A stretch of DNA of 63,177 nucleotides, the filler included, from Collodictyon triciliatum (lineage: Eukaryota): assembly GCA_043381765.1 (NCBI GenBank). It is 5 parts of 5 records of this genome, joined end to end, with 100 filler letters (N's around TTAATTAATTAA, not from the genome) between each part and the next. Parts side by side here need not be neighbours in the genome. Positions count along the whole stretch, not along the records: positions 27,712 to 41,450 come from JBHJMP010001934.1; 4 more parts are not named here. One strand, given 5' to 3'. Position numbers and translations under genes: made by a program. Position 1 is the stretch's first letter. The number at the start of each line of letters is the position of its first letter. Below, piece after piece: positions 17,821 to 55,377 of the stretch. Under the pieces are notes generated by a model. That model was not told the DNA's origin. It saw nothing but the letters and a program-made list of their open reading frames with translations, and did no database searches.

Positions 17821-19053
17821 TCTGGTCTGGGTAAGAGTGCTACGTTTTTTTCAAAAAATAATGTTATTCTTTCTATAATTACCTATTACCCAGCACTAGG
17901 TTTTCACAAAAATAATGTGCAGATAGCCTCCGTCTTCCGTATTATCATGTATTGTTTTGTTTTGTTTTGTTTCTGATACCTGAGCCGAGCGGGGGTCAGT
18001 CGAGACGCAGTTGGGATTTGTCTGAGTGGAAAGGAATTTGTGATTCACGGCAGACAGAATAATCAGCTTCAACTTTAGTCGAAGGCCAAGCGCCAATTGG
18101 AATTGCCCGCCCACACACCCACAAGAGGCTGCGACATTCCCCCGCTCGATGGCCAAACTCAATCGCCAAAAAGCAGGCTTCGTAACCATCATCGTCACAA
18201 ACTTACCCTTTGTGTGCTCCTCTCTTTGAATAAACGGAGCTTAATCTGGAAAAGTTGGTGCTGGGGACAGTATGGGTAGGACAATATGGTACATACATGG
18301 AAATTTGACATAAATATGACAATTATTTAGTAGAATATTCATTAGGTTTCGGCAGAAAAGTATAATTGTATTGAATATGATATAAATTTTACTGATTCTG
18401 TGAATTTTCAAAAATACAAATTTGGAAGTAGACCACTTCGAAAATGAATAACGAAGGATTTATCGAGCGATTTTATACGGATAAATTAATATTGTATATA
18501 ATATACTGTATTATATTCTCTTTTGGTATGATTCAGAAGGCCTGGAAATATGTTTTAACTATCCCGTTTCTTTGATTTTTTGGTATGTTTGTATTTGAAG
18601 GGCACAAACAAAAATAGAAAAACGAACAGATTCTGGTGGCTGCTGCAAAGCAAGGAAAGCGATTTAGTTACATCTGATAAAAACCACGACATGTTGTGAT
18701 GCAAATAATCGGGCATTGTCACACTCATACTTGAAGACTTGTAGAAAGAATATGAGCTCTATCACCCCACACAAATACCGTAAACGCCGGTAGACCATCG
18801 GGTGGAAACGCACCAAAAAGAAAAGCTGGCGAGCAGAGAAGATAAACTTGCCGAGTAGCTAACACAGAATTCACAAATACCGCGAAAAATGAGAAGCGAG
18901 ATACTTGCGAGACTTTGAACAGATGGAGAAATGATTCTTTGGACTAGGAAAAAAAAAGAAAAGACCTTGTATCCGTCCTGCATATCATCTGTGGACATGC
19001 AGCAGTTATTACCTCGCAACAACAAAAATAACACCCACGACTTCTTCTGAAAG

Positions 19054-20670
19054 ATGTGGTCAAGACGAGACTATGATGCTGCTACTCTCGAGCTTATCAC
19101 CACAAATTGCTCCAAGGCTTCGACCCTTATCTACAACATGAAAGGCACTTTGCTGAATCCCCAAAGGCTGAAGGAGCTGGAAGACATCTGCCGCAACTTC
19201 ATCACTACGAATAATCAAAAATATAAAATCAAGACGCTCTCTAAGCCACCTACGGAGGGAGGACTGGGACTCATAACGCCTGGCATTGCATGGACATCAC
19301 TCACGATGAGATGGTGGACAGATATGCTTACCCATCCGAAAGGATTTTGGCAGCGTGGAATGTGGCATCTCATCCATCGCATATGCCCGAACTTCAAGGC
19401 ACAGCTCTGTGAGAGCAGAATCCCATCACCCCCGCCAAACACGCCCGAGCCGCTACTAGCGCGGTGGAAGGTTCTGTATGAAAACTGTGAAATGTGCGAG
19501 TCTACCCAACTACATGCGGGTACAGGCCAGCTTTGCTGGGATAGAGCAAAAGGCTTCTGTATCATCAAGTCGAGAGAAGGAAACAGCTCCTTCGTCCTGC
19601 AACAAGTCGCTTTTCAAAAGGATGGGAGCTTCGCACCGTCGAAAAATGCAACGATATTTCACTCCTCGAATGCAACCCCAACCACAGCCGTCCTGAACAA
19701 CAAAGGAGAATGGCGCTCACGACGTCCCATCTCATACGGAGCACCGTCGCCATTTTTCTTTCGCCTGAAGAACCAAAGGCGGTCCATTACGCCTGATTCT
19801 CCGCAATTCTCGATGGCCATGGCGTACTCCAAATTCTTCCGATATAAAATCATAAGTCCGAATCCCTACAAACCGGAGAAGATGAGTCGTTGGGCCGAAA
19901 CTATAGGCATTATAGACCCGCCAATAGTCAAAAGCTGGAAGCAAGCCCGTATACCTCAGCTACTCCCGAAGCACCGCGCCCTACTTCTCAATATCTCCAA
20001 CAGAGAGCTGTGGATAGGTGCGCGCGTAGTCCATGCAGCAACGACCTCCCCAGAATGCACCATGTGCCATAGTGGAGATGACTCTATCGAACACACATTT
20101 GTGAAGTGCTCTCTGGCTCAAAAAGTGACAGAATCTACCCACAAGATGCTCTCTGAGCTTGATTATGCTCCCAACCGACTCAGCGCGTCTGACATCCTGT
20201 TTGNNNNNNNNNNNNNNNNNNNNNNNNNNNNNNNNNNNNNNNNNNNNNNNNNNNNNNNNNNNNNNNNNNNNNNNNNNNNNNNNNNNNNNNNNNNNNNNNN
20301 NNNNNNNNNNNNNNNNNNNNNNNNNNNNNNNNNNNNNNNNNNNNNNNNNNNNNNNNNNNNNNNNNNNNNNNNNNNNNNNNNNNNNNNNNNNNNNNNNNNN
20401 NNNNNNNNNNNNNNNNNNNNNNNNNNNNNNNNNNNNNNNNNNNNNNNNNNNNNNNNNNNNNNNNNNNNNNNNNNNNNNNNNNNNNNNNNNNNNNNNNNNN
20501 NNNNNNNNNNNNNNNNNNNNNNNNNNNNNNNNNNNNNNNNNNNNNNNNNNNNNNNNNNNNNNNNNNNNNNNNNNNNNNNNNNNNNNNNNNNNNNNNNNNN
20601 NNNNNNNNNNCCCTTTGTATGGCATAACTTAGCTGTACTTTGAATCGAATAAATATGAAAAGTAAGAAAA
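19054..20670 (+). mobile_element. 5'-truncated L1/Tx1-like non-LTR retrotransposon (post-RT region, zf-RVT, apparent 3' end)
   Basis: Intronless ORF with KPPTEGGLGL..WW and the zinc knuckle CTMCHSGDDSIEHTFVKC; after the gap, TTTGTATGGCATAACTTAGCTGTACTTTGAATCGAATAAA plus an A-rich tail. Linkage across the gap is inferred. Confidence 0.85.
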
Positions 20671-27611: not shown

Positions 27612-27711
27612 NNNNNNNNNNNNNNNNNNNNNNNNNNNNNNNNNNNNNNNNNNNNTTAATTAATTAANNNNNNNNNNNNNNNNNNNNNNNNNNNNNNNNN
27701 NNNNNNNNNNN
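27612..27711. other. Artificial scaffold linker
   Basis: N44-TTAATTAATTAA-N44. Confidence 0.97.
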
Positions 27712-28790
27712 GAAGTCTCCCATCCAGCATCCTTTGCTTTTGATGTCTCCCAGCCAGCATCCTTTGCTTTTGATGTCTCCCAGCCAGCATCCTTTGGCCT
27801 TGACGTTTCCCAGCCAGCATCCTTTGGTTTTGAAGTCTCCCATCCAGCATCCTTTGCTTTTGAAGTTTCCCAGCCAGCATCCTTTGCTTTTGAAGTCTCC
27901 CAGCCAGCATCCTTTGCTTTTGAAGTCTCCCAGCCAGCATCCTTTGCTTTTGAAGTCTCCCAGCCAGCATCCTTTGGCCTTGACGTTTCCCAGCCAGCAT
28001 CCTTTGGTTTTGATGCACCCCAGCCAGCATCCTTTGGTTTCGAAGTTTCCCAGCCAGCATCCTTTGGTTTTGATGTCTCCCTGCCAGCATTTCTTGGTTT
28101 TGATGTCTCCCAGCCAGCATCCTTTGGCCTTGACGTTTCCCAGCCAGCATCCTTTGCTTTTGAAGTCTCCCAGCCAGCATCCTTTGGTTTTGAAGTTTCC
28201 CAGCCAGCATCCTTTGCTTTTGAAGTTTCCCAGCCGGCATCTCTTGGTTTTGAAGTTTCCCATCCAGCATCTCTTGGTTTTGAAGTTTCCCAACCAGCTC
28301 TTGGTTTTGATGTCTCCCATCCAGCATCTCTTGGTTTTGAAGTTTCCCAGCCAGCATTTCTTGGCCTTGAAGTCTCCCAGCCGGCATCTCTTGGTTTTGA
28401 AGTTTCCCAGCCGGCATCTCTTGGTTTTGAAGTTTCCCAGCCAGCATTTCTTGGCCTCGAAGTCTCCCAGCCAGCATCCTTTGGTTTTGATGTCTCCCAG
28501 TCAGCATCCTTTGCTTTTGATGTCTCCCATCCAGCATCCTTTGGTCTTGATGTCTCCCAGCCAGCATCTCTTGGTTTCGAAGTCTCCCAGTCAGCATCTC
28601 TTGGTTTTGAAGTTTCCCAGCCAGCATCCTTTGCTTTTGATGTCTCCCAGCCAGCATCTCTTGGTTTTGACGTCTCCCAGCCAGCATCTCTTGGTTTTGA
28701 AGTTTCCCAGCCAGCATCTCTTGGCCTTGACGTCTCCCATCCGACATTTTTTGGCCTTGAAATTTCCCAGTCAGCACTTGATAGTTTTGA
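27712..28790 (-). repeat. Coding 30-bp minisatellite, about 36 units of (D/N)AGWETS(K/R)(P/A)(K/R)
   Basis: Direct reading; frame preserved (one unit is 27 bp); runs into the scaffold end. Confidence 0.95.
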
Positions 28791-31700
28791 AGTCTCCAAG
28801 TCTGTGCTCATTGATTTTGATATGTGCCAGTCAACAACTTTTGGTTCTGAGGTGTTCCTATGACCATATCGTTTTCCAAAGTTTTGTCGAACAGATTTCC
28901 TATGGCTTTGAATATCGCAATCCATAGCAATCTCTTCTATCTGCGCTTGTGTGGTATCTCTATTGATAATATTTCTTTGTCCTCTACCTTTGAATTCATC
29001 AATTTTATTTTCTCTCGAAATTGACACAGGGTTGGTCGACCTTTCTATTAGGTATGCGGATGTTGAGGGTATTATATTCCTATGATCTTCAGTCTGTCGA
29101 TCTAGTTTGAGTGTTAAGAGCAGAGTAAACTTGCTGAGATGACGCTTGATAAAAAAAATTTTTTTGTTAACTACAAATAATTAGTATTCAATTACATCGA
29201 TAAATATTGAAAGTAGATTGCCCAACCATAAGAAGTCGGACCTAATTCATCAACGTAAGGTTGTATATACCGCTTGGAACTGTCCTCTAATAAATTTTTG
29301 AGATTTTAAAAATAGAAATTCATCTCCAAAGCTGGTCCTTTGGGTAATATTTTAGAAACATATTCCCTACCCAATTTGCTGCTCTTAAGCCTTTTATTTG
29401 AGGAATTCATCTCAGGGTAGGGCGCCACCTTTAGTTCGGTATTTCTCTGTTGGCGATATTAGCATTAATCATGAAAATAACAATTGCATCGTATTTCTGT
29501 ACATGAATGGGTCTTGTAGTATGAGCGACACGATGTTCAAAGGGCATTGTAGCCTATATTTTAACTCTACGATATTACATTAAATGATCCTTTAGGAGAA
29601 AAGCTATTAAAATATCTATCGAACGGCTTCTTAACTTGGTGATCTATGCGCAGTGATGGCCACAAATTTGGATATTAGAATTGAATATTTGTATAATTGG
29701 ATGAATACATATGATGAACTACCAGTTTAAATATACAAAAGGGGTGCTAATTAATCGCAGTGATATTTATTTTCTCTTACATGAACCAGAAAATTTAGCT
29801 TCATTAACAATTCCATCCAGTATTTCAAATTTCTGGGAAATACTGACCCTGGATATGAAGTAGCAGGCAAATCTATTTGATGTAGTATGTATACTCAAGT
29901 TTTTACTAGAGAAAATGGACAGGCGCACTGACTTTACATTTGATTATCTTAACACAAATACCTTGCTCGCGTGACCCAAAATTTCAATTTCTTCACATGG
30001 GAATTAATCAAAGACTCTATAACCCCGTAAGAACATGTTACGCCTTTTTTTTTTCACCTAAAATCTAAAATGATGTAGAATAAAAAGGTACCTTCACAGT
30101 CAAATATAGGAATCAAAACAACATCAAAGCTTGATCTCTTCATTTTTATCTAAAATGGTGTTAGTTTGTCAATTCAGAACACCAAAATCATTCAAACATT
30201 TTAGATATGGTGAATGGGATTATGATTTCCTTTTTAAAAATATTGCAAATGTAAGCCAACCGGATCATCTATAACAGTCGGGAATTCTCTAATTTTAGAG
30301 AGGACGTTTAATGTGAACTCCTTGTAAGGGGATGCGATGAGAATATCATCAGATACCTGTAGCATAAATCAAGTGAGATTAAAACCAGGCGTGTAGCCTA
30401 ATTTACAGGTCTATGTATCCAAAAATGAAACTTATTAGATAAAGTTTCCATACGTTCAGAGCAGAATCTTTTTCTTTCAAGTATTCGATAAGCATTTTGA
30501 TGAATTCCACAACCAGGGATTCGATTGGTGAACCAATTTGTTTTTCAGTTATCGTGACATCGTTTAAATCCAGATAAGCTATATTTATGGTTAAATTTGC
30601 ATCAAATACCGAAAAATAATTACAAAATATGCGTGGATGCCTTACCAAAAGCTGATAAAAAAGTTCCATAATAGGGCTTAAATAATTGTGACGTCTGAAT
30701 GGTATTTGAATCCAACAAGCAAGACTAGGTATTATTTAAGGGATACTTAGTCTAGAAAAAGAAAATAAATACCATTCTGAAAGATAATTGCCAATAGTTT
30801 ACCTGATAAAATACTCTGGAAACAATTCTTGATATCTTAACATGCATTCGATACCTTCAGATAGGATGCGAAATTTAAAAAAGGAATATTTTTTAAATAA
30901 CAAGAAAATGCACATGTATGAGTAATGTAGAGGAAAACTTTCTCTTACTGTGTAGATAACGTATGACTAGAGTGCAGTGACTCCTATTTTAATATCACGT
31001 TTATTTTAGCTTCTATAAATGCAGTGAATAACAGTTAACTTAAAAGCATACCAATAACCTGGAAAAAAGACTATTTTCACAGTTGGTCCCTTCAAAAGAT
31101 TTTAGCCGAGAATGTTCTATAAATTGATGGTGTTCTCCAATCATAACATAATTAGTTGGGTTACATTGAAGACAGTTCATGGTTCTAATCTCCAGGGCCT
31201 ACAATTGCGAAAAGTTCATATACTGTGATAAAGAAAAAAAAGGATGTATATACCTGTTTAAAAGCAAAAAATGAGGCATTCTTTTATTTACTCAAAGTAA
31301 TACATGCGATGCGTCGTCAGTGATGATTAAGCTGAACTTGTGTGCAGTAAGCAACTCTTCATGGGAACTAATAGAGAAAGAATGAATTTTGGGACATGTC
31401 TATCTTACAAACATTCAAAAGCCCACCAATAATCTAAAGTAGCGCAAATTACACCGGCTTCCTTTAGTAGAGACCGCCTAGTAGCGTTCATTGCTTTTTC
31501 CTTCTGTACACTCAGCAATCAGCACGTCACACATTATTATCCATAAAATTATTTGTATGGTTACTAGAAGTTATTTATGCAGTCTAATAAAGAAAACCTC
31601 AAACGACCAAACTTTAGTTCTAATTTCATCCCTCTGATGGCCTTGTGTGAAAAAAAAAATCAAAAATAAAGAGGAGATTTTGCTAATATGATTTGAATGG

Positions 31701-34700
31701 TCTCTTCCAATAAACAAACTTTTGTATTCAAGAATCTCTTTCAGTTCATTCAATTTTCTTCGGATTTCCTCTGGAGCCCATAAATTTGCCCTCATGAACT
31801 TCGTAATTCAATATATATTGCTATGAGTAAAGATGAAATTTCAAGCGTTGCATATTTATTTCCTGGAGCATAAATTTTACCTCGGCGGACTGCCTCAGCT
31901 TATATCTCTCTATTTCAATCTCTATCCTATTTTTTTTTTAAAAAAAATAAATTAAAAATCGATACATCAGATGACTAATTATAGTTATGAGAATAATCGA
32001 TGTCAAATAATTCACTGTCGAATGATGTTTTTATCCTTTAGACTAACACAATTTTTGATATTTGTTGGCCAATATCAGATAGCATCTTAACAGTGTATTC
32101 ATTCTATAAGGGCGTTAATTTAACTATTACTGTCAAAAAGGTTAAATTGAAAATTAAAAACATGCATTTTCAAGAAAAGCTTATATTTTTATGTAAATAA
32201 ATAATCTGACTAACTGGTTGGATCATTTGGCACTTCTCTTCTGTGACATAATCTATGTGATGAACAATCGCTTCGGAGTTGGTTTTATCTATGTTCCCCT
32301 AAATTGCGTTATTTTATTTTATTTCTCACTTTAAATATACGGATACTTCTTGTCTGAGCAAAAGAAGTCAATAAAATATACGTATTTCAACGCCATGCGC
32401 TTTCCTGTTTCTTTCCAACTCATTTCTTCGTTAATTTGAATTACAATTTCATCGATTGTACTATCATTTGTGGACGTAATCAAAATGAATTCCTGTAAAT
32501 ATTATTGTTCAATGCCAAGCAAATATGATGAAAATGACTTAAACATATGATTACAAAAAAAAAATCAGACTGATAAAGTTATAAAATGAGAAAAACCTTA
32601 GGTGAATCACAAAAATAAGTTCGAACTATTGCAGACACAAGCGTACTTTTTCCCGTTCCTAATTTATGATTAATTTCCATAAAAAAATATTCAAAAAATA
32701 TCCTTACCCGCCGGACCTTGGATAATCGTTATGCCCTTGTCACTGATAGCCGCCTTGATTTTTGAATACGTCATCAGTTAAATATCACTATCATTTGTAA
32801 ATGTAAGGAGGAAAACCATTATTGACATTTGTTGCGTTCTGTCAAATTGGGATAGGTATTTCTTCATGAAGGGTTTCTGAGTAATCTCTTGATATTTCCT
32901 CTCTACAAAAAACAAAGTTTAGATGTTATTTACTCCAAGCTGTAGCTAAAAAAAACTGAATATGTGAACCAAAAACTATCTTACTAAGAAACTGGGAGCT
33001 TACCATGCTCAAACATTTGTAGTTTTGATATATTTGGCTTCAATAATTGCTTCATTAATTTAACTTTGTGAAGCCGATTGAAGACTTTTGCCGCAGACAA
33101 ATGTATTCGCCAATTAAATAGCTGAATATAGGTTGAGAGGAGAGGGTTCAAGACAACTTTATAGAAGTAAAAATGAAGATAGTAGTCATTTAATTTTGAA
33201 ATCAATATGAAAACCTGATAACAATTCCATTTTGTGTTGATAAATGTTTTAATTTCTTCTTCCCTAAAAAAAAAAAGAAAAAAGAAGTAGACGAATTTAT
33301 GATTTAGTGCGTATGAAATTTCTCCGATTTTATCAAAAAGGCATACTCAGCGTTGATAAAAAAATAATTACTCATTGCTGGATTCTTTAGTAAGATATAT
33401 AGACAGGAAGCCCTGTAAATATGAAGAAACTCTATTAATACACACGAATGATTTTTTAAAATTAATTTTTTTTTTCATACATCATCACTGGAGATAGCTG
33501 TGGCGAATGTCCTTTCGGCCAGATTCTCCGTATTCTAGTTTATATGATACTACCTTTCAATAATTCATAAATAGTATAGAATTCAAGAATAAATGAATTG
33601 TATATAGATTACAGAGCTTCTATAAAACTCTGAGAAAGAACCTGCAAAAATAGGCAGTCGCCTTCTTTGAATCGCCGCATCACAGAGATAATCCTACAGC
33701 TCATCTTATAATGACTTTTTGTCGAATTCACCCAGTTTGTGATGAATATGGTTGAAGGATTATCTAAAAAAAAAATTAATGATGATATCGGATTTTAAAT
33801 TGATTCTCAGGTTCAATCACTATTTCATTTTCAAATCATCGATTCCTAACATTTACTCTCAGATTTTAAGTCACTGAAGATATCGACTCGAGCTAGCTCA
33901 AGAACAATAGGAAACATGACCTCAGCGTACTCTTTTGTCGAACTATAGGGGTTGATATGAGCCACTTTTACTGAAAGGAAATGTGGTCTTTCGTCGAATA
34001 AAAATATGCAAATCAAATAAAAATTATTTTAATAAACTCACGCATATTGCTTTTTGCTTGGAATAATTCTTGGTTGTACCTAGATATACAGTAAAATAGG
34101 AAATGTGAATACTCGTCCTCATCATCATATTGATAGAAATAAAATTATTTTGAATTATTTTTACCGGAATTTCTCCAGATTTGATATCGATCGTTTTGGT
34201 GAAAGAAATAAAAAGTTGCTCGTAAATGCGACCAATTTCGATGATTGAACTCGGCCTTTGCTCAATCATTTTCTATTACATCGAATATTTACTTTGTTAG
34301 AATTTTAATGTGATTAAATTGTTTTCGAGTGGATATTTGATATATGGTCCTTAAAAAGTTACTTCGGTTAACTAATGCTAAGAGATATTATTAAGCGATA
34401 GAATGATCAAATACCAAAGCATTTTTTGATGGGAGTGAGTTACTGTATCCTACTTTGGACTCTATGTGACCATTCCAAATGCATAGAATCATTAAAATAT
34501 ACTTAAAAAGAGTTCATGGAGGTAAAAATACAGTTTTAAAGGAAGAAAATTTATCAATTGATTAGATAGTATAAAAGTCTCACCAGAAGCTAGGTCTTTT
34601 GTGGAGCAACTATCAATAAGCCCTGAGAAAATGTGTAAGTGAGGGTAGCGTTAAAACAAAAAGGAAGGAGAGGGGGGCATGTTGGATTTATGGACTATTT

Positions 34701-37700
34701 TCACCTGAATTTGGTTCCATTCCGAGCGAATGTATGTTTCTTTCACATGTAGGCTCAATTAAATCTGTTTTGTAAGGTATTGAATTTCAAAATGTAATTG
34801 AATTTTCAAGTTTATGTTTATAAAAATATGTACTAGTATTTATTTATTTTTAAAAAAACCTTTTGGCCGGTCTACCTAATATGGAAAAATTAACATGTAT
34901 CAAATTAAAAAATATTCATGTACGATGTGGTTTTTCTTGGAAAAGACATAGACTCACAGGCTCGTGAAGGCCTCTTTTGCGGGTAATATTAGTGTCATTC
35001 CAACCAATCTCAGAGAAACCCTGGAAGGGTATAAGCTGATACATATATTATATTTCCATGTTAAATTTCTTCATCGCATACTTTTCACAACTTGACATAG
35101 CATTTTGAGGCAACACGCTTAAAATAATAGTAATAGTAATACACCCCACTTTGCTGGGACCAGGATGCGTGTTTTTTTCGGTCGACATATCTCCAGAGAC
35201 GGAATCATTTGATTCGTGATTAGAATGGCTCCTGTCCTTGTATGAGGTAATCTTGAATCTGCTAATATTGCTTGAAGCATTTTGTAACCCCTAAAATTTT
35301 GGTGCATAGTCGGTTGTTTAATTAGACACTTTTTTTAGAATATTTTGAATTATTGTTATTACAAAAGCCTTGAAATGTAATTACAATAAATCTCAAAGAG
35401 AATCTGGCAATTTTTGAAACTTGCGTCATCTTGTCCTTTCATCTCTGTACTGATTCCAGTTATCCATCCAGGTCCTTTATACTGCTGGAGCATGGCATAT
35501 ATATCAGGGAACTCGGGGCTATCTGATTTTTAAAGTTAATCTTTTTTTGCTTTATTTAATTCAAAGTGATTTATAAAATTAATTTGAAAATGAAAATTTG
35601 CAATAGAAATAACTAAAGGCAAAGTAACAAGAGATAAACATTTTAAGACCGCCTTGCTCAAGGATTCAAGATAAATTGTATCGTCTTCAGGTTTATGAGA
35701 TTTCAATGCTAAATATTGAAACTGTTTATCAAATATGCTCATGAATGAATCCGCCCAAGGTGTAGAAATACAATGCAAACATAAGATACATTTTTTTCAT
35801 TAAAAATACTTGCATTCAAGTATCGTCTGAGCAAACGATTTCCGTTGTATTCTTTCTTTGGAAGGATATGAATTAGCTTCAAGAGAAGGAATCAGAATTC
35901 TCTGGATCCAAAATAATGCTATTTGATATAAAATTATGGTATGAGTAAAATCTTCGACGTCTATTTGATTGATGATTTTGTGACAAATTCTCTTGGGTAA
36001 AAAGATACTCAAAAACAAAATTTCCTTACGGTCATCACATCTAATCGAAGAAAAAGATGTTATTATAACTTTGAGCATGTCGAAAAATGGATTTGGTATA
36101 AAATATATTCCAGCAAGGTTATGTTCCTAAATTTTGATTGTGGATAGAACGATTGATCTATTTAAAATAGTATCTTTTTCTCAAAGAGTACAAAATTAAA
36201 GAAAAAACTAAAATATTTGAGATTAACTTTTAAAGAAAAAAAAAAGGACTCTTCTACCATTTCTTTATTTGTCGAGGCTATTAATCGACCTATTTCTTCT
36301 AGAAAACCATGCGATTCGATTATTTGGTGTGCTGTAGGTTTTGAGAAACGACTTTTAGAACAAATATTATCATTAAATTATTGTAGATATATCATAAAGG
36401 AAACCTGGTATGATGTCAGTCAAACATGTTGATATGTTTTCAAACAAGTTGTTGATGTATTCCGGGTTCCAAAATGATGGATTAAATTCTACATACTAAG
36501 TGAATAATTTGCATGTCATTTTCCAAAAATAAAAAAAAACCTTAAAGCTTATTCACACGTTAAGCGAACAATAGTGTAAGGATACTAAAGTGTGAGAGTG
36601 ATATATCATTTTTTCTAGAGAATATTCCAAATTATAACCTTGGTGATGGCACACAACCCATCCAAGAATATATCACCTCCGCACAAATCGATAGCCTGAA
36701 AGAAAAATGAATGTTAACAATGTTTTGCTGATTTTTCATTACGATAAGAAAATACATATTTCACTATCCCAACGATTGATGTCTGAACTCCTAGCCTATT
36801 ATATGTTTATTTTTAGAAATAATTGAGGAAATAATGCTATGTTTACTACATAAAATTGATATGAGAAATGATTTATTTAAAGCAAAAACTTTTTGAAGCA
36901 TTTTAGAATCGATTGTGTAATGTGGGATGATCGATGCGACAAAAAGCCACAAATGTGCTTGCAAATGGATGGATTTGTCCAGATGTCATCTAAAACTCCG
37001 GTATTACACCACTCTCTCGTAATTTCAAATGTTATATGAAATATTCTAGGTTTTATAAAAAGAAGTATGGTTTAAATTCATATGCTGACAACGATGCCAT
37101 CTGCCCACCATTACGAAAGTAATTACTTTTTCAAATTAATTCGAACCTTTGAACCATATTTGACCAAGAATTAGGTAGTGATACATCATTTATTTTCTGG
37201 TATAGTATCCATTCAGTTAATGTATTCGCCGGTGTAGTTAACGTAAAGCTCCCATTATGTTAAAAAAAAAAAAACACCAACCGAATTTCCGACCACCAGT
37301 TGTTTCAGATTGAGATTCTTTGAAAGAGAGTGAATTTTTATTACAATGACAATCACAAAAAAAAAATATAAAAAATCAGTGCAATATAAAGAGTATACTT
37401 ACAATCAATTGGAGATACAACAGTAACAATGTTTCAATATTATAGACTTCACGAAGGTCACACCCATAGAAGAATAATACGAAGGGCTTTCCATCAAATT
37501 AACATTAATTTGGAAAATAACTCATGTAAAAACTACACTGTTCAATTGATGGGGTCGCTTAGGTATTGCCTAAGTGTTGTAATTTGTAACTAGACGTTTG
37601 TATCTAGGAAAGTACTGAATACCTCGAAAAAAGCGTTTGAGAATTGAATCGCTGATTCCCTTGTCTAAAAGGGCGTCGTTCGGCAGAATATATCGAGTAA

Positions 37701-40700
37701 AATAATATAAAAAAAGGAAGACAGTAGTTCATGAATCAGAGAATCAGCACAAATATACTGCATATATTCCATGCTACCTGTCGTGTTCCATGGGGTGAGG
37801 CAAATTTGTTTTTTATGAAGGCTTTTGGTTTCGTCAACAGTTGGTAAAAATAAATCATTTTAATATCAAGTAAAATACATTTATCCAAGAGCGCACATTC
37901 AATGAAATAATCCATGTTGTTAGAAATTACTCAAGAAGTGATTCAATATAGTGCGGGCGACACCCAGGGCCACTGTAGGAGACTTATCGTTAGAATGAAA
38001 CAAATGACATTCATGGTTTTATTAGTCATACGTAATTTTTGTTCCTTCATCTCATCAAGGTTACTATTGGAGATGCAAAAAATGAATATGAGGAACTCTC
38101 TATTTGAATGCAGCGGTATGACATCATAGAACTCCCTACAAAAAAAAAACCTTTTATAAATGAAAACCAATCAATAGTTTCCCCCTTTTTTTTTCGGGAA
38201 AAGATAAAAGTATAGGAGATAAGCAACTGAAAATATTTGGGGCACCTGTAAAAAGACTCGTTAAGAATTCTTGTGCATAACTCTTTTCGTACATGAGGAC
38301 ACGGAGTTAACTTGTACTATGTATGACAACCAGAAATAATTAAATTGTAAATCAGTTCATATATAGCCACCAAAAGGAGAGGAAGAAATAAAAGGTTCAA
38401 GGGTTACCAAGCAGAATACTCGCTGCAGAACTTTTGGAACTTTTTAACAAAATCAAAATGATGAACCCATCGATTAGTATATTTTGAAAATGATCCAACA
38501 CAAAATATTAAAATCTCGATATAATTATGCCTGACTCTTATAAATTTTATGGTAAGTATTGTGAGAAGAAAACAAATTACAAGTGTTCTTACCATCCACA
38601 GCATGCGTGTTAGAGAATTCGATTATGTCATCCAGGAGCTTTTTTTTGTTGATAAATAAATCAATTATGCCTTGCCTGATTTCAACTTTGAAATGAGAAT
38701 GTAATTTTAAGTTAAAAAGTCAAGCGGTACCTCAAATACAGCAATAACTACGTCATATGATACGTCAGGTACCAGAAAACGGTTCAATAAGGAAACCATT
38801 TCAGGAACGTCAACAGATATGAGTCCCCAAAATTCATTCCCTTGATATGAAAAAGCATATTTAACAGGCGATGAGAATCTTCATGATATTCAAGATATTT
38901 GCAGATGAAATAGAGATTACTGAAGGTGCGGATGGCTGTCAATATAATCTCAAATTTCTATTGAAATTTGAATATCAGTGTTCATGTTTACCTACTATGC
39001 AATTATCGCAACATAACTTTGTTCATTCTTTCTTTTATATTATAGCGTTTAACTTTACTTGTCTAGTGTTCCTTGTATTTCTCTTGAGCTGTGATATTGT
39101 GAATTTGATAATCTTTATGCTTTCATCAGCGACCATCATACTGTATGATAACTGGTAGAAATAAAGCGACAATCCAAACCACAAAGAATGTACATTGGCT
39201 TGAATGTTTTTGAGAATCTGCACATCCTTTTGAATTCTATTTCAATAACAGTTTATTTGGATTATTTTTAGGTTGAATCAAATTATGAATTAATGATAAT
39301 AGAGAGAAATGGTATCTTAGGTTTGAACCTGTCATCGGTGCTTAAGCTTGCAACTCTACCGTCAAAATGTAAATCTATGTATGAATTTTTGAAATTGTAT
39401 AAAAAGCGCTTTTTGTTGTGTAGCATGATTATGACGAATATAATTCAAAGTATGCAAAATACATTCAACGATGAGATGCAAATTCGGCAATTGATGGAAG
39501 GGAATGTCTTGAAACTCTAATGCTTTAGCCAACGCACTGGCAAATAAGCTTGGTATAGTGATAAAGTAGTTATTTTCTTTTCATCCAACCGTACAGATAA
39601 AACGTTAAAATCTGCGTAAAAAAATTTTTTTTTCTTTTCATGGAACTCTGAATCATGCAACTGGGACACAATGAGATATCACACATGTTTCAAGTTACCG
39701 TAAACTTGGCCGGGAAGAGAAAAACATATAGGGGACTGTTCGTTGTACTGATGCAGGGATATCTTGAACAATAATTCCACCTGAGACTAGCTTGGGTATT
39801 ACCTATTTATATAAATAAAAAAACCAAACCATTCAAAGAGATAATTTGAGGCCCATCTGTTCTATCTGTTATTTAATGGCTAAATGATATGGTGACTTTC
39901 AACTTTTTGTTTGCTGTTTGTAGAAGAGAAAAGGGATTCATATAACCGCAAAAAAAAAAAAAAAATACATTCATTAAAGGGTTCAGAATTCTTTCGTCTA
40001 GAAGCCACCCTGGATCTGTTAACGCTTCCAATACAACTTTGCAGTCATTGATAATGATCGGATCTTTTCTGGTATCGACATCTTTCGGGAAGAAAATCAA
40101 GTTATACGTTGAAGGAGAAAATTATATAAAGGATAAACAGTATGGATATATTGTAGATTTTCATCAAATGGCATGAGTAATTTTTACATTCAATCAATTA
40201 AAAGTAACATAACAGGTGTTTTTCTTACTCAGTTGATTCAGTTCAGAGGAAATTCTATCGATTTGCATTTCTATAGCTCCCAAGAACAGCAGGCTGCTTT
40301 CTGGGTGTGCTTGCTCGAAACTGAATCTCCACATATGAAATCTTTGCGAACTTGAAAGGAGAACAAAAAAATGATAGGCAAATTTCGATTCCGTTTTAGC
40401 AAACAAGCGGATTCATGACGAAAAAATATGATAGGTCGGTAGATATATATAAACACATATGTATTTATGCAGGGGCGAAAAAAAGAACAGCATTAACTGA
40501 TGTGGATGGTTAGACATATACAATTGAAGGAAACCATTCAAAGCATCTTGAAATATCAACAAAGGTTGACTGGATCATCTTGTGGATGTTACTGGGTGAT
40601 TTGAATGAGGAATGGCTGGATGTGCTCCTCAGTTTGCACCAATAATGAGCCTTTAGCGATATTGACAAGGAGTGTGAAAAAGGTATACATGGCCCAATTA

Positions 40701-41100
40701 ATGAACGATGCGGATAATCGATGGCAAGAACAAGACGCTGCTCAATATTTCCCAATTTTAATATAGGAAAAGGTAAAAGGAAAAAAGGAAAAAAGGAAAA
40801 AAGGAAAAAAGGAAAAAAGGAAAAAAGGAAAAAGGAAAAAAGAAAAAAAGGAAAAAAGAAAAAAAGGAAAAAAGAAAAAAAGGAAAAAAGGAAAAAAGGA
40901 AAAAAGGAAAAAAGGAAAAAAGGAAAAAGAGAAAAGTGAGAAGTGAAAAAGGATTTTAAACTGTTGCCTGAGTAAGCTGAGTGCAAGAGAATTGAAAGGG
41001 CTATACTATAGAAGGCCATCACCTGGAATAGGCTCTCTGCAGGTGACTCGGTTGGGCCATCTTCATGGTCTTTATTCTCGACAAGGTTCTTGGTTTCCAT
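27712..41100 (-). CDS. Sen1/senataxin-like (UPF1-like SF1B) helicase with a long N-terminal region and a C-terminal GW-repeat tail; 3' end truncated
   Basis: IIQGPAGTGKST (about 32640-32730), LIITDDASH, MIGEHHQF, SLFSRLL, LSTQYRMHVKISRIVSRVFYQ, ILIASPY, LKFWVTRAR; further exons lead to the DAGWETSKPR repeat ORF. The start at 41100 and the single-gene model of the N-terminal exons are inferred. Confidence 0.75.
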
Positions 41101-41450
41101 CCTACCACGACCGAAGTGAGTGGTTTGTTACGAGAAGAAGAAAAAAGAAGAAAAGCGAACCCAGACAACAACGTCCGGCAATAGTGGCCTTTTCCGACCT
41201 TGTGTGAGGTCTATCTGTGGCAACGAACAAAGGACAAAACCTTCGGCTATGAGCTATTCCTTTTTCTCGTCGTTTTGTTGATTGCTATTTGTTGGAGCAA
41301 AGTGGCTGCAACTGCTTTGTGTTTGGGATCTATCTTCTTTTTCTTTTCTTTTTCTTTTACTTTTTCTTTTTCTTTTTCTTTTTCTTTTTCTTTTTCTTTT
41401 TCTTTTTCTTTTTCTTTTTCTTTTTCTTTTTCTTTTTCTTTTTCTTTTTC

Positions 41451-41550
41451 NNNNNNNNNNNNNNNNNNNNNNNNNNNNNNNNNNNNNNNNNNNNTTAATT
41501 AATTAANNNNNNNNNNNNNNNNNNNNNNNNNNNNNNNNNNNNNNNNNNNN
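41451..41550. other. Artificial scaffold linker
   Basis: N44-TTAATTAATTAA-N44. Confidence 0.97.
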
Positions 41551-44700: not shown

Positions 44701-47700
44701 TGAACAAATGCATATTATCCGGAGACTCTATCCATTCAACTTGTTATCCCACTTTTGTTTCGATAGAGGCTTGGGATTTGTTGGTGATGGTATGCAAGTG
44801 ACAGACTTCATGTATTTGAAAAGGCAGATGATTCTATCAAGGTACCCTGCTATTATGAGTCTTGATTTTTTATCCGACATATAAATCATCCCCTTGGCTT
44901 TGTTTTCTTATTTCTCCTTTTAAGCTATAAATGGCTCCAATCAAAGTTATCTTCATGCGGAAGCGAAAAAATGCCTCTCGCAGTTCTGGAGAAACTTGTT
45001 AAAGCCTGGCATCAGTGAATTTCAAATCGAGAGTAAAGCAGAAGATTTTGAAGTCCTGGAGAAGATGGCTCTTTCGTGCTATGAAGGAATCCTGAAGAAA
45101 TTTCCAAGGAACAAAGAGGTCCTTCGGTCCTTTGGTCAGTTCTGGATGGACATATATCGCAACGATAAAATCGCTGGAGAGTATTTCTCTCTCGCAGATG
45201 AAATCGAGGAAGAGGAAAGTCAGGTGATGGAAAAAAAAAAATTATCCATCATAATCTAACGAAGGATTGTTTCAATCGTGAAAACCTAAAGTGTGAGTCA
45301 ATTAATTTGTTCTCGAAAAAATTGAATAACAGAGGCACTCTAAGGCCAGGTATGAAGGAGGTCCTTCAACTGGGAATATCTCCCATGTTCCATTTCATGA
45401 AACTTCCACAGATGGTGGGCCTATGAACGTAATGCCTTCATCATCTCATTTGATAATTTCATCTTCTATATAACTGGTACCCATGTTTTCATCAATTAAT
45501 ATTTATTCATTTATTACATAAAGTATAATTAAAATATTAGAAACTATCTGCCCTCCCTGAGATAGAGAAGACAAAAAAGCGTGCGGTGGATAACGAAAGC
45601 ATTTCTGAATATACAACATCTAGTAAAGAGAAATCACGGTAATTTCCTTTATCAAAATCGGTAATACTAAATGCTAACTGATATAACTGAATACGGCCCT
45701 GTAGATTGAGGCTGCTTAAAGGTAGAATAAAACAAATACAGAACATAGACATTGCAATGGAGTCCCCTGCTGTGATTAAATTCTCTCGTATTCTTGCGAT
45801 AATGCAGATTCTCCTCTTTGTTGTTCCACTAACAGGTTTTTCTTTTTCTGATATGGCCATGTTCATTCTGTGTAAAAATTTATTTCTTTTTTGATTTATT
45901 CAATTCAAGGATAAAATTATATTTCTTAATTCATTCACCAGACTATACTTCAATTAAAATTATTGTGAATTTTTGTATGGCATAACCTCGCTGCAATTTG
46001 AATCGAATAGAAGGGGAAAAAATGATTGTGATTTGTAAGGATTTTATCATCTAAAATGGCGGTCAAATATCCCACTTTTAGGCTTTGCCGTTTTTACAAA
46101 ATCGTTAAAACTCCTTCAATATAACGCTGAAGTATTGGAATCAGTGCACCAGCAGATTGGTAGATTTGAACAAATTACATATTCAGTTCGGTCTCAGATT
46201 CTCAACCACGAGGTTTTGTTCATATTTGGTTTGATAACTAAACATGATAATTGTACTATAAATGCACATCATTGTTTGATATTAAACATTTACTTAAGGG
46301 ATTATCCTTTAGATTATCCTTTTGGGACCGGGTCACTATGGATGTTCATCGATTGATAACTGCATAATAGAATCTAGAGGAAATGTCTCTGTTGAAATAT
46401 CTGACTTTCTAACTGCAAATATTATGCTATACAAGGACCTAAACCCATCATTCGAAGGAATTAGGGAGTATCTATCGAAAGGTCCTATCAACCTCGTTTT
46501 CTACACAGGCTCTGAATTGGAACCGAGAAATGAACAACTGAGTTTTCTGGAAGCAATAAATTATTATGGAACAGCAGCAAGTGATGTCATATCTGAGAGT
46601 GAGATATTTTTTCTGTCAGAAATGTGATAAATGTTCATTGCTTCAGAGTGCACTCACTTTTTTTTAAAAAAAAATGTAATTAAGGTCTACGAGCTAACCT
46701 TACCAAAGACCCAAATTATTTATTTGTCGTAAATAACGGGCCAAGTACCATTTTTAATGGTCTCATTCATCTTGAAAGATTGGTCTTGGAACAAGAGATA
46801 TTCTTGATGAATGAGTTTTTTGTCATATTTGGCTCTCTGATGGGGGTGATTGTCCTCAGTATACCATTGTTGGCTCTCGTTTGGATTCCTAATTATGTAA
46901 AAGTCCGTGAAGAAATCAGTGCTCTCGGTAAACTACGTACAATTCCCAGGGCAGGTAATTTTCATGAATTCCCTCCATAGTTGGGATTGTTTCATGCTTT
47001 TTTTCCCTTTATTCGATTCAAAGTGGGATTATTTCATGCTATCAATGATAACGCACTTGCATTAATTTACAACCTCATTCGAATAATTATACAAGGAATT
47101 TAATGTTATAAACCCACCAGAAATCATCGGAATGTGTCAGCTGTATCGTTCAAGCAAAGAATCATCCGAAGATGATGATATCGGAAATTATGTGATGAGC
47201 ACTCGAGTTTTAAAAAGGACCTATACATATCAAAGAGTTTCTGTCCTATGTTCTATTTTCCTGGCTATGATTGGATTCACTATCATCATTTCGTTAGGAA
47301 TCAGTCAAGCATCCATGTATATAAACCCTTGATTTTATTTTAAAAGTTTTTTCCTTTATTCGATTTTTTATTTTAAAAGTTGAATAAAAACATTGACTAA
47401 ATAGGGGTTACTATTGTGTGAATCGATTAATATGTATTATTTGCCATTTACTTAAATATATTACAAAAATAAGGCTATCTCCAAGGACGAGTGAAGCCTC
47501 TCTTCGAAAATCATACAGTGCGTCCGCATATTACAAACTCCGAGATATGTATCTACACCCGAGCGTGACCGAGGAAATGAGACAGGACCTAGAAAATATG
47601 AGAGAGGTACGTACTGCGAATAATACAAATAAAACAGCATACATTTATCACACATTTATTTCGTTAATTCTTTAAAATATAGAATATGATGAGAACCAAT

Positions 47701-55277: not shown

Positions 55278-55377
55278 NNNNNNNNNNNNNNNNNNNNNNN
55301 NNNNNNNNNNNNNNNNNNNNNTTAATTAATTAANNNNNNNNNNNNNNNNNNNNNNNNNNNNNNNNNNNNNNNNNNNN
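55278..55377. other. Artificial scaffold linker
   Basis: N44-TTAATTAATTAA-N44. Confidence 0.97.

What the first reader, a model, noticed from the sequence alone, without database searches (positions are those of the whole stretch)
27712..29027. About 32 GW motifs (candidate Argonaute hook) on a Sen1/senataxin-like helicase
Seen: about 36 decapeptide units DAGWETSKPR in a G/W/S/K/D/E-rich tail, in an ORF downstream of helicase motif VI on the same strand and scaffold; Trp is kept in nearly every unit. Known: reiterated GW/WG motifs bind Argonaute (GW182, NRPE1, SPT5L, Tas3), and the plant UPF1-like helicase SDE3 has a GW tail. Inference: a Sen1-type protein repurposed as an AGO-recruiting scaffold linking nascent RNA or R-loops to silencing. 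I do not know this architecture for Sen1/senataxin.
Basis: partly seen in the sequence, partly recalled or inferred. Interest (0 to 1): 0.8.

Follow-up and report, generated by a model that had tools for sequence, protein, structure and literature searches.

The report
Helicase gene with tryptophan-repeat tail
A spliced, expressed gene of an AT-rich eukaryote joins a very divergent RNA/DNA helicase to a floppy tail of at least 36 ten-residue repeats that each carry one tryptophan, which looks like the docking platforms that recruit Argonaute silencing proteins, although no binding has been tested.

Summary
A 30-bp array (27712-28797, 36.3 copies) reads T-S-K-P/A-K/R-D-A-G-W-E on the minus strand, with 32 GW and 36 Trp, almost all at 10-residue spacing. 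It runs into the scaffold end, so its true length is unknown.

The array is coding. This frame has the highest synonymous share, 0.60 against 0.05-0.41 in the other five. Spliced RNA contigs from two public runs cover it. A 26-exon model, all AG/GT, gives one open frame of 1083 codons from the helicase motifs into the array.

Caveat: the one contig that spans the middle of the gene skips a 52-nt exon (motif IV), and that skip breaks the frame.

The helicase has SF1 Upf1-like motifs I-VI in order, but II, III, V and VI are non-canonical. No Pfam or PDB search recognised it. The tools refuse spliced proteins, so "Sen1-like" is untested.

The Pfam hit (PF25296, DotG-type decapeptide) is a weak per-unit resemblance summed over many units. 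The tail is predicted to be disordered.

An Argonaute hook, as in plant SDE3, is the best reading (about 0.4). I could not check for an Argonaute, for orthologues or for binding.

The parts
27712..28797 (-). 30-bp tandem array encoding the decapeptide T-S-K-P/A-K/R-D-A-G-W-E, 36.3 copies. It is cut off by the scaffold end at 27712.
   Evidence: The synonymous share of departures from the unit consensus is 0.60 in this frame and 0.05-0.41 in the other five.
28798..28850 (-). Degenerate in-frame units at the 5' edge of the array (VVDWHIS.., ..DLETS, ..ADWEIS, ..VGWETS). Trp is kept in three of the four.
   Evidence: Translations.
27712..29101 (-). Last exon (exon 26): about 75 non-repeat codons followed by the array, 462 complete codons with no stop.
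   Evidence: The acceptor joint 29101>29227 is seen in contigs of both X1 and X8. X1 record 1 covers 28770-29051 and runs on into the array. Frame.
29227..29872 (-). Exons 22-25 (29872-29781, 29643-29579, 29446-29371, 29286-29227). They form a low-complexity linker between the helicase core and the last exon.
   Evidence: X8 record 10 (477 nt) joins all of them to 28928-29101. All splice sites are AG/GT. The linker lies on the disordered side of the charge-hydropathy line.
29962..30724 (-). Exons 17-21, the second helicase half. They hold ILIASPYKEF, the motif V region (TVIDDP / FDVVLIPIF) and motif VI (KLKFWVTRAR).
   Evidence: Joints of X1 record 2. Motif positions. Model.
30803..30854 (-). 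Exon 16, 52 nt, encoding (Q)YRMHVKISRIVSRVFYQ, which is motif IV. The open frame needs this exon, but the X1 contig skips it.
   Evidence: AG/GT borders and frame. The skip follows from record arithmetic: 113 letters equal 79 + 34. It also follows from the depth of 1.69 in bin 30695-30969.
30949..33263 (-). Exons 1-15, the first helicase half: motif I GPAGTGKS (split between 32753-32708 and 32658-32597), Ia ILITSTNDSTIDEIV, LLKEAGVICATL, motif II FSLIITDDASH and motif III VMIGEHHQF..SLFSRLL.
   Evidence: Listed joints support the introns from 32381 downward. The loose end at 32659 matches the end of the motif I exon. Introns 1-3 are inferred from AG/GT sites and frame only.
33347..33375 (-). 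Candidate first coding exon, ATG at 33375 (MSNYFFINA..). An in-frame stop lies 33 codons upstream.
   Evidence: This is inferred only. No laid X1 contig gives depth from 33445 upward.
27612..27711 (.). Artificial linker (44 N, TTAATTAATTAA, 44 N) that ends the scaffold. Sequence beyond it is unrelated to this gene.

Best explanation
Gene structure (about 0.85). One minus-strand gene, about 33375 to beyond 27712, has at least 27 short exons. It encodes a protein of at least 1093 residues in four parts:
- a short N-terminus of about 95 residues;
- a very divergent Upf1-like SF1 helicase core of about 450 residues;
- a low-complexity linker of about 160 residues;
- a disordered C-terminal array of at least 36 decapeptides, each presenting one Trp in the context D-A-G-W-E-T-S.

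Mechanism (about 0.4, inferred). The array is a multivalent tryptophan docking platform of the Ago-hook type. Trp side chains spaced 10 residues apart in a flexible, charge-balanced chain insert into the Trp pockets on the PIWI domain of one or several Argonaute/Piwi proteins. The helicase core holds on to RNA. This brings silencing complexes to the RNA that the helicase has bound, as proposed for plant SDE3.

The core may clamp RNA rather than translocate along it, because motifs II (DD..H), III (GE..QF) and V depart from the canonical catalytic residues. This last point is inference.
For: Shown:
- The array exists and is unique in the window.
- The coding frame is the DAGWE frame. Of 96 departures from the unit consensus in 33 units, 0.60 are synonymous in this frame and 0.05-0.41 in the other five. 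Most replacements are K/R or P/A. The single indel is 3 nt.
- The frame stays open for about 127 codons upstream of the array in AT-rich DNA.
- Contigs of runs X1 and X8 are spliced with GT..AG introns on the minus strand. They link the last exon to exons up to 29874 (X8 record 10) and cover 29872-32414 (X1 record 2).
- Listed joints or pieces show 17 of the model's 25 introns directly.
- The 26-exon model has only AG/GT sites and 1083 codons without a stop.
- Helicase motifs I, Ia, III, IV and VI occur in canonical order. Their frequencies in 200,000 shuffles of the core are 1.5e-5, 0.0085, 0.020, 1.1e-4 and 0.030.
- The tail is predicted to be unstructured: AlphaFold2 mean pLDDT 43.3, no residue at or above 70, and no secondary structure in the array. 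It lies on the disordered side of the charge-hydropathy line.

From the literature:
- AGO hooks are disordered, variable repeats with conserved Trp, mostly in GW/WG contexts (passages in bioRxiv 10.1101/2024.01.20.576478).
- The C-terminal disordered GW region of the SDE3 helicase binds AGO1 in a Trp-dependent way (passages in bioRxiv 10.1101/2025.10.18.683247).
- AGO-binding sites of TNRC6 hold at least two Trp separated by ten or more residues (passage in PMC9262622).
Against: - The only contig across 30724-30949 skips exon 16, and no other laid X1 contig covers that exon. The transcript form actually seen is frame-broken before the tail.
- No tool recognised the helicase. Pfam was run on three read-through frames and on 10 single exons. 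PDB was searched with three frames and with the longest exon. The identification rests on motifs I read by eye and on recalled consensus patterns, and patterns III and Ia were loosened after I had seen the sequence.
- No orthologue of the tail was found, so conservation of Trp across species is unknown.
- Adjacent Trp have only 9 residues between them, at or just under the stated spacing of 'ten or more'.
- The tail is 20% K+R. I recall this as more basic than the GW182-type hooks.
- The copies of a tandem array are not independent, so the synonymous excess may partly reflect spread of a few unit types.
- I could not check for an Argonaute because no genome is held.
Confidence: 0.4

Rival explanations
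1. The tail is a Trp-based docking or condensate-forming region for partners other than Argonaute. It could be read like the Trp-containing nonapeptide repeats of the fission-yeast Spt5 CTD, which recruit capping enzymes. It could work like the W motifs of GW182 that bind CCR4-NOT. Or it could act as an aromatic 'sticker' chain that concentrates the helicase in RNA granules.
For: - The S. pombe Spt5 CTD is a tandem nonapeptide TPAWNSGSK that the RNA triphosphatase binds (abstract of PMC4274631).
- AGO-hook-like regions may attract other proteins and drive condensates (passage in bioRxiv 10.1101/2024.01.20.576478).
- The tail is a balanced polyampholyte, K+R 75 and D+E 72, with one aromatic residue every 10, and it is predicted to be disordered.
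Against: - The G-W dipeptide with small or polar flanks in 32 units is the specific context reported for Argonaute hooks.
- The unit has no Ser/Thr-Pro kinase site of the CTD type.
- No partner is known.
Confidence: 0.3
2. The array is a tolerated minisatellite expansion inside the last exon of a fast-evolving, perhaps decaying, helicase gene, and has no specific function.
For: - The array is very homogeneous (85% matches) and made of a few unit types, such as AGA/AAG and CCA/GCA, as expected from recent unequal crossing-over.
- Catalytic motifs of the helicase are degenerate.
- The observed contig is an exon-skipped, frame-broken form.
- No homologue of the tail was found.
Against: - 1083 codons without a stop and 26 exons with intact AG/GT sites in AT-rich DNA argue against decay.
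- Trp is kept in 31 of 32 full units. Departures are mostly synonymous or K/R.
- The only length change is in frame.
Confidence: 0.15
3. The helicase and the repeat are not made as one protein. The main mRNA skips exon 16, so translation stops in exon 18 and the repeat lies in an untranslated 3' part.
For: X1 record 2 joins 30949 directly to 30724. The depth in that bin is fully explained by this one contig. Without exon 16 no frame passes from exon 14 to exon 18.
Against: - Exon 16 has AG/GT borders, encodes the expected motif IV at the expected place and restores the frame exactly.
- The codon-position pattern of the array shows that it has been translated in the frame that continues from exons 17-25.
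- Contigs drop rarer variants and so cannot show absence (tool note).
Confidence: 0.1
4. The array is a true member of the DotG/IcmE-type decapeptide family (Pfam PF25296) and folds as a pentapeptide-repeat-like solenoid rather than a floppy hook.
For: PF25296 E 2.9e-37, 126.8 bits against a cut-off of 45. Legionella IcmE/DotG E 2.4e-43. Of the best 150 of 886 library hits, 112 carry at least 5 AGF units.
Against: - Only K-D/E-A-G-aromatic of the ten positions is shared.
- The score is about 3.5 bits per unit, against about 16-19 bits in four true members (484-1260 bits). Three of those four also hit Pentapeptide_4, which the tail does not.
- The position five residues after the aromatic is P/A here, where the members have L/C.
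- AlphaFold2 predicts no structure.
Confidence: 0.03

Closest known systems
Arabidopsis SDE3 (Upf1-like/MOV10-type helicase with a C-terminal GW Ago hook)
   Same: An SF1 helicase core followed by a disordered C-terminal region with GW dipeptides. In SDE3 this region binds AGO1 in a Trp-dependent way (passages read). SDE3 gained its hook late and only in some angiosperm families, so helicases can acquire hooks independently (passage).
   Different: Here there are at least 32 GW in a near-perfect 10-residue tandem array rather than a few scattered motifs. Motifs II, III and V of the helicase are non-canonical. Orthology to SDE3/MOV10 could not be tested. Binding is untested.
NRPE1 and SPT5L/SPT6L AGO-hook repeat platforms of plant RNA polymerase V
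   Same: C-terminal, disordered tandem repeats with reiterated GW/WG that tether Argonautes near nascent RNA. A. thaliana NRPE1 has 17 motifs and SPT5L usually has 50 or more (passages in PMC7714444 and bioRxiv 10.1101/2024.01.20.576478).
   Different: The carrier here is a helicase, not a polymerase subunit or an elongation factor. The unit sequence is unrelated. The organism is not a plant, judging from gene content elsewhere in the window, which is weak evidence.
GW182/TNRC6 Argonaute-binding domain
   Same: Trp residues in a flexible chain, with at least two Trp separated by ten or more residues per binding site, and several Argonautes bound per chain (passage in PMC9262622).
   Different: TNRC6 motifs are irregular. 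Here the spacing is fixed at 10, with 9 residues between neighbours, and the chain is rich in K/R and D/E.
Fission-yeast Spt5 C-terminal nonapeptide repeats (TPAWNSGSK)
   Same: A short tandem repeat with one Trp per unit in the tail of an RNA-linked factor, read by partner proteins (abstract of PMC4274631).
   Different: The period is 9 rather than 10. The Spt5 unit has a Thr-Pro phosphosite that is absent here. Its partners are capping enzymes, not Argonaute.
DotG/IcmE-type decapeptide repeats (Pfam PF25296)
   Same: The period is 10 and the core K-D/E-A-G-aromatic is shared. The hit is formally above the Pfam cut-off.
   Different: The aromatic residue is F rather than W. Members have a hydrophobic residue five positions later and co-hit Pentapeptide_4. 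The per-unit score is about five times lower here.

Membership tests
AGO-hook (GW/WG Argonaute-binding platform) | Three or more reiterated Trp motifs in GW/WG context | tested here: met
   32 GW, 1 WG and 4 DW in the last 383 residues.
AGO-hook (GW/WG Argonaute-binding platform) | The motifs lie in an intrinsically disordered region | tested here: met
   Single-sequence AlphaFold2 gives mean pLDDT 43.3 and no secondary structure in the array. The charge-hydropathy value lies on the disordered side. Both are weak predictors.
AGO-hook (GW/WG Argonaute-binding platform) | Trp pairs far enough apart to reach two pockets (ten or more residues, PMC9262622) | tested here: inconclusive
   Neighbouring Trp are at i and i+10, so 9 residues lie between them. 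Alternate Trp are at i+20.
AGO-hook (GW/WG Argonaute-binding platform) | Position-specific score of the Wsearch/Agos predictor (at least 3 motifs with score 6 or more, as used in bioRxiv 10.1101/2024.01.20.576478) | not testable with these tools
   The predictor is not available here.
AGO-hook (GW/WG Argonaute-binding platform) | Trp-dependent binding to an Argonaute of the same organism that has open Trp pockets | not testable with these tools
   No whole genome is held. No Argonaute sequence from this organism is available.
AGO-hook (GW/WG Argonaute-binding platform) | Trp conserved in orthologues while the rest of the unit drifts | tested here: inconclusive
   No orthologue was found. The metagenome locus search gave no answer.
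Upf1-like SF1B helicases | Motifs I, Ia, II, III, IV, V and VI in order with usual spacing | tested here: met
   Positions. Chance frequencies of five patterns. The consensus patterns are recalled, and two of them were loosened after I saw the sequence.
Upf1-like SF1B helicases | Canonical catalytic residues (recalled consensus: motif II DEAxQ, motif III GDxxQL, motif V FQGxE) | tested here: not met
   The model reads DDASH, GEHHQF and DDPIKMK at these places.
Upf1-like SF1B helicases | Significant match to Pfam AAA_11/AAA_12 or to a solved Upf1-like helicase | tested here: inconclusive
   No match was found with three read-through frames, 10 single exons or the longest exon. The spliced protein could not be submitted, so a miss is expected for exons of 11-49 residues.
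Sen1/senataxin subfamily | Long N-terminal helical domain before the helicase core | tested here: inconclusive
   The probable ATG lies about 95 residues before motif I, and no laid X1 contig gives depth from 33445 upward. The start is inferred.
Sen1/senataxin subfamily | Groups with Sen1/SETX rather than Upf1, MOV10/SDE3, IGHMBP2, ZNFX1, AQR or DNA2 in a tree | not testable with these tools
   No reference helicase sequences could be fetched, and the spliced model cannot be sent to the searches.
Pfam PF25296 decapeptide repeat (DotG/IcmE type) | Score above the gathering cut-off | tested here: met
   126.8 bits against a cut-off of 45.
Pfam PF25296 decapeptide repeat (DotG/IcmE type) | A-G-F core plus a hydrophobic residue five positions on (double pentapeptide), with a per-unit score like that of members | tested here: not met
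   The tail has W and P/A at these positions. It scores about 3.5 bits per unit against about 16-19 bits in members. It gives no Pentapeptide_4 hit.

The most novel reading that the evidence does not exclude
A helicase-fold protein whose catalytic motifs have drifted has become an RNA clamp, and in a lineage outside plants, animals and fungi it has independently grown one of the longest and most regular Argonaute hooks known. The hook has at least 32 GW at a fixed 10-residue period and arose by minisatellite expansion in its last exon. Inclusion or skipping of a 52-nt exon would then decide whether the hook is made at all.
Probability: 0.3. Interest if true: 0.75.

Novelty: new variant of a known kind. 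Interest (0 to 1): 0.55.

Why it matters
- Argonaute hooks are known on polymerase subunits, elongation factors, GW182 proteins and one plant helicase. A second, independent helicase-hook fusion would show that coupling an RNA-holding helicase to Argonaute is a recurrent solution.
- It would show that such hooks can arise quickly from a coding minisatellite.
- The array is a natural test object for multivalency. It has identical units and one Trp every 10 residues, right at the reported lower limit for bridging two pockets.
- It would also give a first candidate GW partner for Argonautes in this organism's lineage.
- If the tail binds something else, it is still an unusually clean example of a Trp 'sticker' repeat on an RNA enzyme.

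Tried and rejected
I repeated it with X at the stops. No helicase family appeared, only a chance NinG hit.
- PDB searches with three read-through frames and with the longest exon gave no helicase. Pfam on 10 single exons gave none either.
- The 'RRLSVTRA' string at 32749-32732 looked like motif VI. It is out of frame, next to motif I, and I rejected it.
- Searches for homologues of the tail in the 5.8-billion-protein set found none, with the 'longer' and the 'near' length settings. The longest helicase exon found no candidate. The ESM Atlas gave no usable hit.
- In the 1.84-billion representative library there were 886 hits at E up to 0.001. The best 150 are mostly AGF-type decapeptide proteins (112 of 150). 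Only two of the 150 have 5 or more GW. P0147 has a GGWGSSKPST unit and no Pfam family. None has a helicase plus this tail.
- No whole genome is held, so the Argonaute question stays open.
- No RNA holder is listed on record. X1 and X8 are marked 'RNA?', and I treat them as RNA only because their contigs are spliced. X10 laid nothing, and X2 (a freshwater metagenome) laid only short pieces.
- The bacterial promoter and terminator scan near the putative start means nothing in a eukaryote.
- Papers: none holds 'PF25296'. None holds 'GW repeat' together with 'senataxin'. None holds 'DotG' with 'repeats' and '10 amino acids'. 'Decapeptide repeat' with 'helicase' gave two irrelevant papers. PMC5125548 and PMC2000319 are not held, and I know them only from reference lists.
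- Supplementary files were not consulted.
- Complex prediction was not used, because no Argonaute of this organism is available.
Full report
What the window is. The window is AT-rich eukaryotic DNA. It is not one continuous piece. Four identical linkers (44 N, TTAATTAATTAA, 44 N) cut it into five pieces of about 13.7 kb. The finding lies in the piece 27712-41450, which has no internal N run. The repeat touches the very end of that piece, so the assembly has truncated it.

The observation. Tandem Repeats Finder reports one array, 27712-28797, with period 30, 36.3 copies, 85% matches and score 1351. A 17-nt unit pattern matches 32 times, all inside the array, where 0.01 matches are expected by chance.

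On the minus strand the array reads T-S-K-P/A-K/R-D-A-G-W-E. Among 32 full units the residue counts are T31, S32, K25/R7, P23/A9, K19/R13, D29/N3, A32, G30/D2, W31/R1 and E31/G1. The last 383 residues of the frame hold 36 W, 32 GW, 4 DW and 1 WG. Of the 35 W-to-W gaps, 32 are 10, one is 9 and two are 20.

Is it coding, and in that frame? Five of the six frames are open over the array, so openness alone proves nothing. Three other lines of evidence do bear on it.
- Codon pattern. Of 96 single-letter departures from the unit consensus in 33 units, 0.60 are synonymous in the DAGWE frame and 0.05-0.41 in the other five. Most replacements are K/R or P/A, and the only length change is a 3-nt loss. 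The copies of a tandem array are not independent, so this is supportive rather than conclusive.
- Upstream extension. Only this frame stays open far upstream of the array, to 29180. It passes there through degenerate units that still keep Trp.
- RNA. See the next section.

RNA and the gene model. A word search found two runs from one study, X1 and X8, marked 'RNA?'. Laid on 28770-37000, their contigs are at least 99% identical to the window and are spliced. Of the 15 listed joints, 13 have CT..AC ends on the plus strand, which is GT..AG on the minus strand. The other two become canonical after a shift of 1-3 letters.

X8 record 10 (477 nt) joins 28928-29101, inside the repeat-bearing exon, to four upstream exons reaching 29874. 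X1 record 2 (1147 nt) continues from 29872 through the helicase exons to about 32414. X1 record 1 covers 28770-29051 and runs on into the array.

From these joints, from record-length arithmetic and from AG/GT sites, I built a 26-exon model from 33263 to 27712. Every site is AG/GT, and the frame is open for 1083 codons from the helicase motifs into the array. Listed joints or pieces show 17 of the 25 introns directly. One is shown by a loose end, two by arithmetic, and three upstream ones are inferred. A candidate start ATG at 33375 would add ten residues (inferred).

The weak point of the model. X1 record 2 joins 30949 directly to 30724. The 113 record letters between its neighbouring pieces equal the two flanking exons (79 + 34). 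The depth of that bin, 1.69, is fully explained by this single contig. The contig therefore lacks the 52-nt exon 16 (30854-30803).

Without that exon no frame passes from exon 14 to exon 18. With it the frame is exact, and the exon encodes (Q)YRMHVKISRIVSRVFYQ at the place where motif IV belongs. I conclude that the productive mRNA includes exon 16 and that a skipped, non-productive form also exists. The productive form itself was not seen. Contigs keep the commoner path and cannot show absence.

The helicase. On the minus strand, in order, lie the following:
- motif I, GPAGTGKS, split by an intron;
- motif Ia, ILITSTNDSTIDEIV;
- LLKEAGVICATL;
- motif II, FSLIITDDASH;
- motif III, VMIGEHHQF, followed by SLFSRLL;
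- motif IV, QYRMH;
- ILIASPYKEF;
- a motif V region, TVIDDP..FDVVLIPIF;
- motif VI, KLKFWVTRAR.

In 200,000 shuffles of the core, five loose patterns occur at 1.5e-5, 0.0085, 0.020, 1.1e-4 and 0.030. Finding all five in order is therefore not chance. The consensus forms are recalled, and two patterns were loosened after I had seen the sequence.

Several catalytic positions differ from the recalled Upf1-like consensus: DD..H for DE..Q, GE..QF for GD..QL, and no FQG.E. No search recognised the protein. Pfam on three read-through frames and on 10 exons, PDB on three frames and on the longest exon, and a word search with that exon all gave nothing. Exons here are 11-49 residues and the tools do not accept a spliced protein, so these misses are uninformative.

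'Upf1-like SF1 helicase fold' is well founded. 'Sen1/senataxin-like' is not tested. The short inferred N-terminus does not favour it.

The Pfam hit. The tail scores 126.8 bits on PF25296 'Decapeptide repeat region' and E 2.4e-43 on Legionella IcmE/DotG. The alignment shares only K-D/E-A-G-aromatic out of ten positions.

In the 1.84-billion representative library, 886 proteins reach E 0.001. Of the best 150, 112 carry five or more AGF units. Four true members score 484-1260 bits, about 16-19 bits per unit against about 3.5 here, and three of the four also hit Pentapeptide_4. They have L or C five residues after the aromatic, where the tail has P/A. AlphaFold2 gives the tail mean pLDDT 43.3 and no secondary structure in the array.

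I read the hit as a weak per-unit likeness summed over 36 units, not as membership. No protein with this W-type unit on a helicase was found. The nearest W-type array, P0147 with unit GGWGSSKPST, has no Pfam family.

How it most likely works. The tail is disordered and charge-balanced (K+R 75, D+E 72). It presents one Trp every ten residues in a G-W-E/T/S context.

That matches the published description of AGO hooks: disordered, variable repeats with conserved Trp, mostly GW/WG. The architecture has a precedent in SDE3, whose C-terminal GW region binds AGO1 in a Trp-dependent way. SDE3 gained its hook late, in a few plant families only. TNRC6 sites need two Trp ten or more residues apart, and the period here sits at that limit.

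My best reading is a multivalent Argonaute-docking tail on an RNA-holding helicase, at about 0.4. The rivals are:
- a Trp-repeat platform for other partners or for condensates, as in the Spt5 CTD (TPAWNSGSK) or the non-AGO roles discussed, at about 0.3;
- a tolerated minisatellite in a drifting gene, at about 0.15;
- a tail not translated together with the helicase because exon 16 is mostly skipped, at about 0.1;
- a DotG-like solenoid, at about 0.03.

What could not be done. No whole genome is held, so I could not check for an Argonaute. The metagenome locus search failed, so no orthologues and no true 3' end were obtained. Wsearch/Agos scoring, a helicase phylogeny and any binding test remain open.

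Verdict. The gene-level link between helicase and repeat is supported, with one gap at exon 16. The Sen1 label is unsupported. The Argonaute-hook function is plausible but untested. If the function holds, this is a new variant of a known kind, a helicase with an Ago hook, with an unusually long and regular array. Interest 0.55.

Noticed in passing
window 13748-13847, 27612-27711, 41451-41550, 55278-55377: Four identical artificial linkers (44 N, TTAATTAATTAA, 44 N) join five scaffolds of nearly equal length, about 13.7 kb. Neighbourhood across a linker therefore carries no biological meaning.
   Followed up: yes
window 30803-30854 (minus strand): The only spanning RNA contig (X1 record 2) skips a 52-nt exon that encodes helicase motif IV. 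The skip shifts the frame, so this may be a regulated or non-productive isoform.
   Followed up: partly
window 30454-30455: The X1 contig carries two other letters (AC on the plus strand) where the window has GT, at the first two bases of an exon next to the splice site. It may be a strain difference or an alignment ambiguity.
   Followed up: no
window 44924-45256 (+), 51870-52914 (+): A TmcB-type TPR match (PF25474, E 1.6e-12), which I recall as named after a Dictyostelium protein, lies on another scaffold. So do two exons of a tyrosine-kinase-like kinase (PF07714, E 7e-19). Together they hint at an amoebozoan-like organism, but the evidence is weak.
   Followed up: no
window 19051-20202 (+): An open frame of 384 codons carries a zf-RVT domain (E 1.5e-07). 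It is probably the 3' part of a non-LTR retrotransposon and runs into an N gap.
   Followed up: no
window 40718-40959 and 41300-41450: The other end of the same scaffold holds K/E/R-rich purine microsatellites (KEKRKKGKK.. frames) and a GA-type run that reaches the scaffold end. Both scaffold ends therefore stop in repeats.
   Followed up: no
protein P0147 (public library, 624 aa): An unrelated protein carries about ten GGWGSSKPST decapeptides (13 GW) and repeated RGRG..KPAWMT motifs. It has no Pfam family. It is the nearest W-type array to the tail (E 5.6e-16, 41% identity).
   Followed up: partly
window 2684-3814 (-): A 376-codon open frame with a (HQS)n run has no Pfam family.
   Followed up: no
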